From: Escherichia coli O127:H6 str. E2348/69
GTDB taxonomy: Bacteria > Pseudomonadota > Gammaproteobacteria > Enterobacterales > Enterobacteriaceae
NCBI RefSeq assembly: GCF_000026545.1
Contig: NC_011601.1
Direction: 5' to 3' (one strand)
Length of the DNA: 64,000 nucleotides
Each line of letters begins with the position of its first letter. The stretch's first letter is position 1. Both the position numbers and the translations under genes were made by a program. Below the pieces are notes generated by a model, which ran no database searches, had not been told where the DNA came from, and was given only the letters and a program-made list of their open reading frames with translations. This document shows positions 22,741-24,958 of this stretch, one piece after another.

Positions 22741-24958
22741 GTTATTCTCTGCATTCAGAAAAAATAAAATCTGGGATTTCAACGGCGGCATCCATCCACC
22801 GGAGATGAAAACCCAGTCCAACGGTACGCCCCTGCGCCAGGTACCACTGGCGCAGCGTTTTGTCATTCCACTGAAACAACATATTGGCGCTGAAGGTGAG
22901 TTGTGCGTTAGCGTCGGCGATAAAGTATTGCGCGGCCAGCCGCTTACCCGTGGTCGCGGCAAAATGCTGCCTGTTCACGCGCCCACCTCGGGTACCGTTA
23001 CGGCTATTGCGCCCCACTCTACGTCTCATCCTTCAGCTTTAGCTGAATTAAGTGTGATTATTGATGCCGATGGCGAAGACTGCTGGATCCCGCGCGACGG
23101 CTGGGCCGATTATCGCTCTCGCAGTCGCGAAGAGTTAATCGAGCGCATTCATCAGTTTGGTGTTGCCGGGCTGGGTGGTGCGGGATTTCCGACAGGCGTT
23201 AAATTGCAGGGCGGTGGAGATAAGATTGAAACGTTGATTATCAACGCTGCTGAGTGCGAGCCGTACATTACCGCCGATGACCGTTTGATGCAGGATTGTG
23301 CGGCTCAGGTCGTAGAGGGTATCCGCATCCTTGCGCATATTCTGCAGCCACGCGAAATTCTTATCGGTATTGAAGATAACAAACCGCAGGCGATTTCCAT
23401 GCTGCGCGCGGTGCTGGCAGACTCTCACGATATTTCTCTGCGGGTGATTCCCACCAAATATCCTTCTGGCGGTGCTAAACAATTAACCTACATTCTGACC
23501 GGGAAGCAGGTTCCACATGGCGGGCGTTCATCCGATATCGGCGTATTAATGCAAAACGTCGGCACCGCTTATGCAGTGAAACGTGCCGTTATTGATGGCG
23601 AGCCGATTACCGAGCGTGTCGTGACGCTGACTGGCGAAGCAATCGCTCGCCCGGGCAACGTCTGGGCACGGCTGGGGACGCCAGTGCGTCATTTATTGAA
23701 TGATGCCGGATTCTGCCCCTCTGCCGACCAAATGGTGATTATGGGCGGCCCGCTAATGGGCTTTACCTTGCCGTGGCTGGATGTACCTGTCGTAAAGATT
23801 ACCAACTGTCTTTTGGCTCCCTCTGCCAATGAACTTGGCGAACCACAGGAAGAACAAAGTTGCATCCGTTGTAGCGCCTGTGCTGACGCCTGCCCTGCGG
23901 ATCTTTTGCCGCAACAGCTGTACTGGTTCAGCAAAGGTCAGCAACACGATAAAGCCACCACGCATAACATTGCCGACTGCATTGAATGTGGAGCTTGCGC
24001 GTGGGTTTGCCCGAGCAATATCCCCCTGGTGCAATATTTCCGTCAGGAAAAAGCTGAAATTGCGGCTATTCGTCAGGAAGAAAAGCGCGCCGCAGAAGCC
24101 AAAGCGCGTTTCGAAGCGCGCCAGGCTCGTCTGGAGCGCGAAAAAGCGGCTCGCCTTGAACGACATAAGAGCGCAGCCGTTCAACCTGCAGCCAAAGATA
24201 AAGATGCGATTGCTGCCGCTCTGGCGCGGGTGAAAGAGAAACAGGCCCAGGCTACACAGCCTATTGTGATTAAAGCGGGCGAACGCCCGGATAACAGTGC
24301 AATTATTGCAGCACGGGAAGCCCGTAAAGCGCAAGCCAGAGCGAAACAGGCAGAACTGCAGCAAACTAACGACGCTGCAACCGTTGCTGATCCACGTAAA
24401 ACTGCAGTTGAAGCGGCTATTGCCCGCGCCAAAGCACGCAAGCTGGAACAGCAACAAGCCAATGCGGAGCCAGAACAACAGGTCGATCCGCGCAAAGCCG
24501 CCGTCGAAGCCGCTATCGCCCGTGCCAAAGCACGTAAGCTGGAACAGCAACAGGCCAATGCGGAGCCAGAAGAACAGATTGATCCGCGCAAAGCTGCCGT
24601 CGAAGCGGCTATTGCACGCGCCAAAGCGCGCAAGCTGGAACAGCAACAACAGGCTAATGCGGAACCAGAAGAACAGGTTGATCCACGCAAAGCCGCCGTC
24701 GAAGCGGCTATTGCCCGTGCCAAAGCACGCAAGCTGGAACAGCAACAGGCTAATGCAGAGCCAGAAGAACAGATTGATCCGCGCAAAGCCGCCGTCGAAG
24801 CGGCTATTGCCCGTGCCAAAGCGCGCAAGCTGGAACAGCAACAGGCTAATGCGGAGCCAGAAGAACAGATTGATCCGCGCAAAGCGGCAGTTGCTGCGGC
24901 TATTGCCCGCGTTCAGGCCAAAAAAGCCGCCCAGCAAAAGGTTGTAAACGAGGACTAA
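22733..24958 (+). CDS. rsxC: Rnf-type complex subunit RsxC with repetitive C-terminal region
   Basis: 741 aa; NADH/FMN-binding core plus C-terminal 32-aa repeats. Confidence 0.95.
24389..24915 (+). repeat. in-frame tandem repeat array inside rsxC (unit 96 bp, 5 full copies plus a partial; one copy is 99 bp)
   Basis: Repeat starts at 24389, 24485, 24581, 24680, 24776, 24872; each encodes [31 protein letters not shown](I/V). Confidence 0.9.

What the first reader, a model, noticed from the sequence alone, without database searches (positions are those of the whole stretch)
24389..24915. 96-bp in-frame tandem repeat array in rsxC
Five full copies plus a partial copy of a 96-bp unit (one copy is 99 bp with an extra Gln codon) encode an Ala/Lys/Glu-rich, probably helical, 32-aa repeat in the C-terminal part of RsxC. 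The array generates long spurious ORFs on the opposite strand and in another frame in the ORF track. Copy number is likely to vary between strains.
Basis: seen in the sequence. Interest (0 to 1): 0.35.

Follow-up and report, generated by a model that had tools for sequence, protein, structure and literature searches.

The report
Variable helix-repeat array in rsxC tail
The 3' end of the E. coli rsxC gene carries a real in-frame 96-bp tandem repeat whose copy number differs between strains; each unit encodes a basic helix that is kept almost unchanged across many gammaproteobacteria, so it probably has a function that nobody has yet identified.

Summary
Units of 96, 96, 99, 96 and 96 bp lie at 24389-24871, followed by a degenerate terminal unit (24872-24955) that ends RsxC. 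The window is E. coli E2348/69, operon rsxABCDGE-nth.

- The array is in frame.
- AlphaFold2 predicts one helix per unit.
- The long overlapping ORFs are by-products.
- Copy number varies: 1, 4, 5, 6 and 7 full units in 15 fetched genomes, and up to 11 in database proteins. About 60% of a 60-genome sample has 5.

An 18-19 residue core, [18 protein letters not shown], is nearly invariant across Escherichia, Salmonella, Klebsiella, Citrobacter, Kosakonia and Erwinia, and is recognisable in Vibrio, Aeromonas, Shewanella and Pseudoalteromonas. The acidic linker that follows is genus-specific in sequence and length.

Core pN/pS is about 0.03-0.05 with synonymous sites strongly diverged, so the peptide itself is under selection. 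The motif was found only in RnfC/RsxC tails. It has no Pfam model and no solved structure.

The same repeat was described as a strain-typing marker in Erwinia amylovora in 2023, so this is a new member of a known kind. Its function is unknown; my best guess is a multivalent docking arm.

The parts
22733..24958 (+). rsxC coding sequence (741 aa plus stop); overlaps the end of rsxB by 8 nt
   Evidence: ORF; NF003454 RsxC 867 bits and TIGR01945 rnfC 596 bits; Pfam RnfC_N, Complex1_51K, SLBB, Fer4_7; 100% identical to E. coli E2348/69, where it is annotated rsxC
24026..24178 (+). Start of the C-terminal tail: one long charged helix (residues 432-482, Glu/Arg/Lys/Ala-rich)
   Evidence: AF2 helix H432-482 with block pLDDT about 89-96; sequence; aligns weakly to the C-terminal end of A. 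vinelandii RnfC 8ahx_C
24191..24235 (+). Older degenerate copy of the core motif (residues 487-501, [15 protein letters not shown])
   Evidence: HMM built from 132 core sequences scores it 10.6 bits, i-E 3e-5; AF2 helix H489-506; an equivalent element (..[10 protein letters not shown]..) is present in distant RnfC tails
24287..24373 (+). Conserved pre-array helix (residues 519-547, [21 protein letters not shown]...); contains I525
   Evidence: AF2 helix H522-547; the PDNS..AREARK segment is conserved in the enterobacterial tails and in several, not all, of the distant tails; the rsxC-I525F mutation from an evolution experiment was reported as 'null or neutral' (PMC4759930; residue placed)
24389..24484 (+). 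Repeat unit 1 (96 nt): [32 protein letters not shown]; the anchored first unit, with Thr at position 5 in every strain examined
24485..24580 (+). Repeat unit 2 (96 nt): [32 protein letters not shown]
24581..24679 (+). Repeat unit 3 (99 nt, extra Gln codon): [33 protein letters not shown]
   Evidence: the 33-aa variant also occurs in CD306, A36, 23CRST044 and P0001
24680..24775 (+). Repeat unit 4 (96 nt)
   Evidence: 97% DNA identity to unit 5, with a longest shared exact run of 41 nt
24776..24871 (+). Repeat unit 5 (96 nt)
24872..24955 (+). Terminal degenerate unit (84 nt): [28 protein letters not shown]; anchored last unit, conserved across genera
   Evidence: HMM score 25.8 bits
24950..24961 (+). 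GAGGA Shine-Dalgarno-like sequence (24950-24954) inside the last rsxC codons, rsxC stop TAA (24956-24958) and rsxD start ATG (24959-24961)
   Evidence: read directly from the sequence; rsxD ORF; RsxD identity. That this is a working ribosome-binding site is an inference
23753..25063 (-). 436-aa antisense ORF, a by-product of the repeat and the Ala-rich coding sequence
   Evidence: no Pfam family; substitutions respect the rsxC frame
24181..24882 (-). 233-aa antisense ORF, a by-product
   Evidence: no Pfam family
24297..24947 (+). 216-aa alternative-frame ORF, a by-product; this is the frame that frameshifted database entries read into
   Evidence: only a sub-threshold Pfam match; P0033 and P0054 continue in this frame

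Best explanation
This is an in-frame coding minisatellite in the 3' part of rsxC, the gene for the NADH-binding cytoplasmic subunit of the Rsx/Rnf complex. It encodes a flexible C-terminal arm built like beads on a string. Each bead is a short, basic, alanine-rich helix (core [18 protein letters not shown], net charge +4). Each bead is followed by a short acidic Gln/Glu/Pro linker (net charge -4) that is predicted to be disordered. Whole units are gained and lost by unequal recombination or replication slippage between the 85-97% identical units, and the reading frame is always kept. This produces strain-to-strain ladders of 32/33 aa. The first and last units stay anchored while interior units are reshuffled and partly homogenised, which is concerted evolution. 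The peptide core is under strong purifying selection across gammaproteobacteria. I therefore infer that the array is a functional multivalent module and not junk. Most likely it is a set of identical docking helices that tether a conserved cytoplasmic partner, possibly an acidic or polyanionic one, to the complex, with avidity or reach set by copy number. Shown here: the anatomy, the copy-number variation, the selection and the taxonomic spread. Predicted: the helices. Inferred: the recombination mechanism. Speculative: the docking function. The confidence of 0.6 refers to the whole statement. The structural and evolutionary part alone is about 0.9, and the docking function about 0.35-0.4.
For: Anatomy and periodicity. 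Gene identity and operon.

Copy-number variation in whole units: E. coli genomes carry 1, 4, 5, 6 and 7 full units. E. coli proteins of 708, 740, 835 and 937 aa carry 4, 5, 7 and 11 units. Similar ladders occur in E. fergusonii (726/759/792 aa), Leclercia adecarboxylata (673 to 865 aa in 32-aa steps) and Erwinia amylovora (0-5 copies of 40 aa, PMC10587187).

Anchored ends and reshuffled interior.

Selection on the peptide: within the window, core pS is 0.33 and pN 0.010, so pN/pS is 0.03; the linker ratio is 0.09. Across 41 unique E. coli units the ratios are 0.05 (core) and 0.13 (linker). Between enterobacterial genera the core pS is 0.52-0.70 and pN 0.005-0.03. Codon tables show synonymous variation at nearly every core position.

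Concerted evolution: within-array core pS is 0.21-0.42 in every species examined, lower than the between-genus values. Linkers are uniform within a genome and genus-specific in sequence and length, with units of 27 to 58 or more aa.

Taxonomic breadth: Vibrio, Aeromonas, Pseudoalteromonas, Celerinatantimonas, Paraferrimonas, Shewanella, Alginatibacterium, Motilimonas, Thorsellia and Erwinia.

Exclusivity: in an exhaustive HMMER search of 1.84 billion representative proteins, every hit that carries the core is an RnfC tail or a fragment of one.

Structure: AF2 predicts a helix-linker-helix arrangement.

Weak functional hint: the rsxC-I525F mutation, in the tail just upstream of the array, arose in an evolution experiment and behaved like a deletion or was neutral (PMC4759930).
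Against: No partner or biochemical activity is known, and nothing in the searchable literature addresses the function of the tail.

Natural alleles with very few copies exist: one full unit in strain 2002-3211, and '0 repeats' reported for some Erwinia amylovora strains. High valency is therefore not essential.

Rnf complexes with solved structures (A. vinelandii 8ahx, C. tetanomorphum 7zc6, and 9eri) work without such a tail.

The helices come from a prediction of only moderate confidence, made on an alignment that is hard to keep in register across repeats. No contact information was available, so I cannot tell whether the helices pack on each other or on the globular domain.

The copy-number frequencies come from a 60-row sample in which only 15 rows were checked directly.
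Confidence: 0.6

Rival explanations
1. The array is a neutral low-complexity spacer. It is tolerated junk at the end of RsxC whose sequence does not matter, and it persists only because in-frame slippage is harmless.
For: Copy number varies freely, from 1 to 11 units in E. coli. Solved Rnf complexes lack the tail. No function has been reported.
Against: Core pN/pS is 0.03-0.05 with synonymous sites heavily diverged. The 18-residue core is nearly identical from Escherichia to Erwinia and recognisable in Vibrio, Aeromonas and Shewanella, while the adjacent linkers have changed completely. A neutral spacer would not keep Ala, Val and Ile positions fixed across orders.
Confidence: 0.05
2. The array is a spacer or ruler whose length is what matters. 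The helices and linkers only set how far something reaches, or keep other macromolecules away from the complex (an entropic bristle), with no specific binding.
For: AF2 predicts a helix-linker architecture preceded by a long charged helix. Tail length is broadly similar across taxa, about 220-590 aa, despite different unit sizes.
Against: A pure ruler needs helicity and charge, not an invariant sequence. Here even the small Ala positions and V7/I11 are fixed. Tail length varies more than two-fold within E. coli alone.
Confidence: 0.12
3. The repeated helices pack on one another, or on helices from neighbouring complexes, to form a folded helical bundle or solenoid, or to cluster Rsx complexes in the membrane. 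This is self-association and not recruitment of a partner.
For: Ala at positions 5, 9, 12 and 16 and V7/I11/A14 form two heptad-like stripes on opposite faces of the helix (wheel angles). The Erwinia authors suggested solenoid or toroid repeats. The helices reach pLDDT 70-78.
Against: Each helix carries +4 to +5 net charge, which disfavours packing like on like. Linkers vary from about 8 to more than 40 residues between taxa and are predicted disordered, which is unusual for a defined solenoid. Alleles with one or two units exist.
Confidence: 0.15
4. The cores are amphipathic helices that bind the inner leaflet of the membrane and hold RsxC against it.
For: The helices are basic, lie next to a membrane complex and are present in multiple copies.
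Against: The hydrophobic moment is low (0.27) and mean hydrophobicity is negative (-0.29, Eisenberg scale). The hydrophobic face is almost all alanine. That is weak compared with known membrane-targeting helices (comparison from general knowledge, not tested here).
Confidence: 0.06
5. One of the long overlapping ORFs (antisense 436 aa or 233 aa, or the +1-frame 216 aa) is the real gene, or a second gene.
For: They are long and uninterrupted. Some database proteins continue into the +1 frame (P0033, P0054).
Against: There is no family match above cut-off. In the window, 16 of 19 variable columns lie at codon position 3 of the rsxC frame, so these substitutions are mostly silent only in that frame. 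The +1-frame database entries are single-member clusters that start as normal RsxC and then shift frame, as expected from sequencing errors or frameshift mutations.
Confidence: 0.01

Closest known systems
RsxC 40-amino-acid tandem repeat of Erwinia amylovora (Sci Rep 2023, PMC10587187)
   Same: Same gene and same position: the repeats start at residue 553 in both. The first 16 residues of the unit are identical ([16 protein letters not shown]). Copy number varies between strains (0-5 there), and the authors proposed it as a VNTR typing marker.
   Different: The unit is 40 aa with an Ala/Pro/Gln linker (AAQAAPAAADKAAPVQQPAAEQ), against 32/33 aa with [13 protein letters not shown](I/V) here. That paper did not separate core from linker, did not analyse selection and did not note conservation beyond Erwinia. 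E. coli was mentioned only for operon organisation.
RnfC subunits in solved Rnf complexes (PDB 8ahx_C A. vinelandii, 7zc6_C C. tetanomorphum, 9eri_C)
   Same: The N-terminal 430-450 residues are homologous (E 2e-121 to 3e-83): barrel-sandwich domain, FMN/NADH-binding domain, SLBB and two [4Fe-4S] motifs.
   Different: Those chains are 435-496 aa and lack the repeat array. A. vinelandii RnfC has only a short Ala/Lys-rich end with no core motif. No solved structure contains the motif.
Coding VNTRs (minisatellites) in bacterial genes used for MLVA typing
   Same: Head-to-tail units whose length is a multiple of three, in-frame gain and loss of whole units, and lineage-informative copy number.
   Different: By general knowledge (not tested here), the well-known examples are mostly surface or secreted proteins, or are intergenic. 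This one sits in a cytoplasmic subunit of a redox complex, and its peptide core is under strong purifying selection across orders. No paper describing this E. coli locus as a VNTR was found under the names rsxC, rnfC or ydgN.
Swinging-arm and tethered-module architectures, such as the tandem lipoyl domains of E2 joined by Ala/Pro-rich linkers in gammaproteobacterial pyruvate dehydrogenase
   Same: Analogy only (from general knowledge): identical small modules repeated on flexible Ala/Pro/Glu-rich linkers, attached to a large redox enzyme, with module number differing between species.
   Different: The modules here are single helices of about 20 residues, not folded domains. No cofactor attachment site is evident, and homology was neither found nor tested.
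Ala/Lys/Glu-rich extended helical regions (TolA domain II, ER/K single alpha-helices)
   Same: Similar composition and predicted helicity. The 432-482 helix that precedes the array resembles an ER/K-type charged helix (comparison from general knowledge).
   Different: The array is not one continuous helix. It consists of discrete, sequence-invariant helices interrupted by Pro-containing acidic linkers.

Membership tests
RsxC/RnfC (NCBIfam NF003454, TIGR01945) | Whole-protein score above the curated cut-off of the equivalog model | tested here: met
   NF003454 scores 867.6 bits against a cut-off of 345; TIGR01945 scores 595.9 against 245.95. The NF003454 match ends at residue 570, which is the end of the first core.
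RsxC/RnfC (NCBIfam NF003454, TIGR01945) | Domain set: RnfC_N barrel-sandwich, Complex1_51K FMN/NADH-binding, SLBB, and two 4Fe-4S motifs | tested here: met
   Pfam PF13375, PF01512, PF10531 and PF12838 are all above cut-off. Two CxxCxxCxxxCP motifs end at residues 388 and 427.
RsxC/RnfC (NCBIfam NF003454, TIGR01945) | Operon context rsxA-B-C-D-G-E (followed by nth in E. coli) | tested here: met
   RsxA, RsxB, RsxD, RsxG, RsxE and endonuclease III equivalog hits, in that order.
Coding VNTR / minisatellite | Head-to-tail repeats far beyond chance | tested here: met
   TRF score 807; lag-96 match 0.761 against a shuffle maximum of 0.398.
Coding VNTR / minisatellite | Unit length a multiple of 3, with the array in frame with the host gene | tested here: met
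   Units of 96 and 99 nt, translated without a stop as part of RsxC.
Coding VNTR / minisatellite | Copy number polymorphic between strains, in whole units | tested here: met
   1, 4, 5, 6 and 7 full units in 15 fetched E. coli genomes; 3-11 in database proteins. Estimated frequencies from 60 evenly spaced genomes out of 5424: 5 units about 60%, 4 about 20%, 6 about 10%, 7 about 8%, 1 about 2% (only partly verified).
RsxC 'DPRK' repeat as described in Erwinia amylovora | Repeat unit begins [16 protein letters not shown] and the array starts near residue 553 of RsxC | tested here: met
   Units begin DPRK(A/T)[13 protein letters not shown], and the first unit starts at residue 553, compared with the published sequence and position.
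   AF2 predicts H554-575, 586-607, 618-639, 651-672, 684-704 and 715-736 at pLDDT about 70-78, with linkers below 50. This supports the claim but is a prediction only; there is no experimental structure.
Membrane-targeting amphipathic helix | High hydrophobic moment with a bulky hydrophobic face | tested here: not met
   Hydrophobic moment 0.27 and mean hydrophobicity -0.29 for residues 3-19 of the unit; the non-polar faces are mostly Ala.
Multivalent docking motif (short linear motif array) | A defined binding partner and binding that depends on the motif | not testable with these tools
   Only indirect support: an invariant core beside a free-running linker, and exclusivity to RnfC tails.

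The most novel reading that the evidence does not exclude
The conserved core (consensus [18 protein letters not shown]) may be an undescribed, RnfC-specific multivalent binding module of gammaproteobacterial Rnf/Rsx complexes. In this reading it recruits several copies of a conserved partner to the NADH-oxidising subunit. The partner could be a redox client such as SoxR, ferredoxin or flavodoxin, the co-transcribed Fe-S enzyme endonuclease III, or nucleic acid. Natural copy-number variation would then tune how efficiently the complex services that partner, for example how fast the SoxRS response is switched off.
Probability: 0.35. Interest if true: 0.6.

Novelty: new member of a known kind. 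Interest (0 to 1): 0.33.

Why it matters
As a plain VNTR it is of modest practical use. It is a stable, 96-bp-step, lineage-informative marker. It can also mislead software: one intact short allele is flagged as a pseudogene, frameshifted entries read on through the open alternative frame, and short-read assemblies may collapse it.

The more interesting point is biological. Rsx/Rnf in E. coli and its relatives carries a 300-residue appendage that the solved Rnf structures lack. Its repeated 18-residue helix is among the most strictly conserved parts of the tail, yet it has no family model and no known function. How the membrane-bound Rsx complex finds and reduces soluble or DNA-bound clients such as SoxR is not understood. 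A multivalent docking arm on RsxC would give that question a concrete, testable handle.

Tried and rejected
1. Motif outside RnfC. I used the one exhaustive HMMER search with the 189-aa tail. Hits from other families (an ankyrin/STAND protein, a C-type lectin, a YadA adhesin and a 3822-aa protein) contain no core motif and are compositional matches. Short hits without an Fe-S motif are RnfC tail fragments or frameshifted fragments. Single-copy occurrences in other proteins would probably have been missed.

2. Literature. I searched rsxC, rnfC and ydgN with tandem repeat, VNTR, C-terminal extension, cryo-EM and in-frame, and also the peptide strings themselves. Only the Erwinia paper describes the repeat. 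The EF-P paper concerns a PPE motif and a terminator near the 5' end of rsxC, not the array. The Haemophilus paper concerns an insertion in rnfC. The olaquindox paper lists a non-frameshift deletion in rsxC without detail.

3. Solved structures. Nothing matches the tail except weak Ala/Lys-rich similarity to the end of A. vinelandii RnfC and a chance match to Vangl2.

4. Membrane-binding amphipathic helix. Rejected on the low hydrophobic moment.

5. TRF's 195-bp period as a true higher-order repeat. It is largely explained by the 96+99 register, although the 99-bp unit has itself been duplicated in longer alleles.

6. Not attempted. I did not try fused-construct AF2 docking against candidate partners, because a monomer model with an artificial linker would not be reliable evidence. 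I did not run the costly genome-collection scan, because named homologs already covered several orders.

7. One call failed: wrong frame for the tail query, repeated correctly.
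Full report
**Observation.** Tandem Repeats Finder reports 24388-24909 with period 96, 5.4 copies, 89% matches and score 807. Translating the 741-aa ORF 22733-24958 and splitting at DPRK gives five full units: 24389-24484, 24485-24580, 24581-24679, 24680-24775 and 24776-24871. They are 96, 96, 99, 96 and 96 nt long. A degenerate 84-nt terminal unit (24872-24955) follows and ends the protein. The 99-nt unit has one extra CAA codon in the Gln run. The repeat finder gives the same spacings. The match fraction at lag 96 is 0.761, against at most 0.398 at any lag in 1000 shuffles. Pairwise DNA identity between units is 85-97%, while protein identity is at least 29/32.

**Gene and context.** The ORF is RsxC: NF003454 scores 867 bits and TIGR01945 596 bits, and Pfam finds RnfC_N, Complex1_51K, SLBB and Fer4_7. 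It sits in rsxA-rsxB-rsxC-rsxD-rsxG-rsxE-nth. The window is 100% identical to E. coli E2348/69 over this region. No Pfam family covers the tail, and the NCBIfam RsxC match ends at residue 570, the end of the first core.

**Overlapping ORFs.** The long overlapping ORFs are the antisense 436-aa and 233-aa ORFs and the +1-frame 216-aa ORF. None has a family match above cut-off. In the window, 16 of 19 variable columns between units fall on codon position 3 of the rsxC frame.

**Copy number in E. coli.** A megablast of 24000-25300 against 5,426 complete E. coli genomes matched 5,424 of them, with several distinct alignment signatures. I fetched 15 genomes that cover those signatures and split the arrays.

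| rsxC length | Full units | Examples |
|---|---|---|
| 2127-2130 nt | 4 | six genomes |
| 2223 / 2226 nt | 5 | K-12 / this window |
| 2319-2322 nt | 6 | O157 644-PT8, A36, strains 124 and VTB97379v |
| 2421 nt | 7 | CD306, 1442, TO60 |
| 612-aa ORF | 1 | strain 2002-3211 |

Assigning the 60 evenly spaced rows by their signatures gives the following estimate, of which only a quarter was checked directly:

| Full units | Share of sample |
|---|---|
| 5 | 60% |
| 4 | 20% |
| 6 | 10% |
| 7 | 8% |
| 1 | 2% |

In the protein collection, E. coli RsxC reaches 937 aa with 11 full units. The first unit (Thr at position 5) and the terminal unit are the same in every strain, while the interior units are reshuffled. 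Strain 23CRST044 is the closest to the window among the shorter alleles (98.4% over the aligned part). It differs by the loss of one unit in the region of units 4-5, which are 97% identical and share a 41-nt exact run. All of this is the expected signature of unequal crossing-over or slippage between units. That mechanism is inferred, not observed.

**Substructure of the unit.** Comparison with other genera shows two parts. The first 18-19 residues, [18 protein letters not shown], are essentially invariant in Escherichia coli, E. fergusonii, Salmonella, Klebsiella, Citrobacter, Raoultella, Kosakonia and Leclercia. The published Erwinia amylovora repeat starts the same way: [18 protein letters not shown]... 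(PMC10587187). What follows the core is genus-specific in sequence and length, giving units of 28 to 40 aa. These linkers are consistently acidic and rich in Gln, Pro and Ala.

An exhaustive search of 1.84 billion representative proteins with the tail alone found more distant RnfC proteins that carry tandem copies of [16 protein letters not shown], with unit spacings from 27 to 58 or more residues. The named ones are Vibrio vulnificus, Aeromonas caviae, Pseudoalteromonas, Celerinatantimonas, Paraferrimonas, Shewanella, Alginatibacterium, Motilimonas, Thorsellia and Erwinia. Hits from other protein families have no core motif. Short hits are fragments or frameshifted pieces of RnfC tails. Most full-length homologs in hand carry 3-9 cores. 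Length ladders inside other species show that copy-number variation is general for this tail: E. fergusonii at 726/759/792 aa, Leclercia adecarboxylata from 673 to 865 aa in 32-aa steps, and a metagenomic cluster at 673/725 aa.

**Selection.** The Nei-Gojobori proportions are as follows.

| Comparison | pS | pN | pN/pS |
|---|---|---|---|
| Window units, core | 0.33 | 0.010 | 0.03 |
| Window units, linker | 0.35 | 0.031 | 0.09 |
| 41 unique E. coli units, core | 0.28 | 0.014 | 0.05 |
| 41 unique E. coli units, linker | 0.33 | 0.044 | 0.13 |
| Between enterobacterial genera, core | 0.52-0.70 | 0.005-0.03 | 0.01-0.06 |

Codon tables show synonymous alternatives at almost every core position, within and between species. 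Within-array core pS is 0.21-0.42 in every species examined, below the between-genus values. This fits partial homogenisation of units within a lineage (concerted evolution) together with strong purifying selection on the peptide. The conservation therefore acts on the protein, not on DNA or RNA.

**Rest of the tail.** A profile built from 132 cores finds one older, degenerate copy at residues 487-501 (24191-24235). The segment [14 protein letters not shown] (from residue 519) is conserved in all the enterobacterial tails examined and in several of the more distant ones. It contains I525. An rsxC-I525F mutation arose in an E. coli evolution experiment and was judged 'null or neutral' (PMC4759930). 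This is only a weak hint that the tail matters.

**Structure.** AlphaFold2 on full-length RsxC with a 42-sequence alignment gave mean pLDDT 76. It predicts a confident globular N-terminal part and a 50-residue helix at 432-482 (pLDDT about 90). Helices at 489-506 and 522-547 follow. After these comes one helix per unit: 554-575, 586-607, 618-639, 651-672, 684-704 and 715-736, at pLDDT about 70-78. The linkers between them are about 10 residues long with pLDDT below 50. So 'helical' is supported by prediction only. The core carries +4 to +5 net charge with a low hydrophobic moment (0.27), and the linker carries -4. This argues against a membrane-anchoring amphipathic helix. Solved Rnf complexes (8ahx, 7zc6, 9eri) have RnfC chains of 435-496 aa without the array.

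**Interpretation.** What is shown is a coding minisatellite with whole-unit copy-number polymorphism. It encodes repeated copies of a peptide that is strongly constrained and specific to RnfC tails of gammaproteobacteria. What is inferred is that the array is a flexible arm carrying several identical docking helices. The neutral-spacer view is contradicted by the selection data. A pure ruler does not need an invariant sequence. Self-association into a bundle remains possible but is disfavoured by the like charges and the very variable, disordered linkers. Against an essential high-valency role, natural alleles with one unit exist, and so do Rnf complexes with no tail. I put the docking-module reading at about 0.35-0.4 and the structural and evolutionary description at about 0.9.

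**Novelty.** The same repeat, with copy-number variation and a proposed use for typing, was published for Erwinia amylovora in 2023. I found no paper describing it for E. coli, and none noting the core/linker split, the selection pattern or the spread across orders. The searchable library covers open-access papers only. I class the finding as a new member of a known kind, with a modest lead toward an uncharacterised conserved module.

Noticed in passing
L003 (E. coli 2002-3211, NZ_CP101305.1) 234-2072: RefSeq flags this rsxC as a pseudogene ('incomplete; missing C-terminus'). The ORF is nevertheless intact: 612 aa with one full repeat unit plus the terminal unit, ending directly before rsxD. 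The flag looks like an annotation artefact caused by the short array.
   Followed up: yes
window 24950-24961: A GAGGA Shine-Dalgarno-like sequence for rsxD lies inside the last rsxC codons (Asn-Glu-Asp). The rsxC stop TAA abuts the rsxD ATG. The C-terminal ..VNE(D/E) is conserved across genera, so this ending may be doubly constrained, by the peptide and by translational coupling.
   Followed up: partly
database proteins P0033 (802 aa), P0054 (832 aa), P0151, P0164: These RsxC entries shift frame inside the array and read on for 150-250 residues in the open +1 frame (..[30 protein letters not shown]..). Because that frame has no stops across the array, frameshifts or sequencing errors give long aberrant tails instead of early truncation.
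   Followed up: partly
window 24581-24679; L004, L016, L017; P0001: The 99-nt (33-aa, QQQQ) unit variant occurs once in E2348/69 and 23CRST044, twice in the 7-unit alleles (CD306, 1442, TO60) and five times in the 11-unit protein P0001. K-12 and O157 alleles lack it. It may mark a lineage, but phylogroup was not checked.
   Followed up: partly
window 22733-22740: The rsxC start overlaps the end of rsxB by 8 nt, and rsxA/rsxB abut at 22162. The rsx genes are tightly packed throughout, which suggests translational coupling.
   Followed up: no
window about 22790-22810 (residues HPPEMK near the RsxC N-terminus): A published study reports a PPE stalling motif in rsxC, followed 16 nt later by a NusA-dependent intrinsic terminator whose read-through depends on EF-P (PMC5021804). 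This is unrelated to the repeat array.
   Followed up: no
window 57855-57931 and 57936-58012: Two tandem tRNA-Val(GAC) genes, 92% identical and 4 nt apart. They were found as the only other direct-repeat family of at least 60 nt in the window.
   Followed up: yes
window 21040-21504: A 154-aa ORF (TTG start) just upstream of rsxA has no NCBIfam match at E <= 1e-10.
   Followed up: no
PMC7696260, Table of mutations: An olaquindox-resistant derivative of E. coli ATCC 25922 is listed with a 'non-frameshift deletion' in rsxC. This could be a loss of repeat units during laboratory evolution, but no coordinates are given in the text.
   Followed up: no
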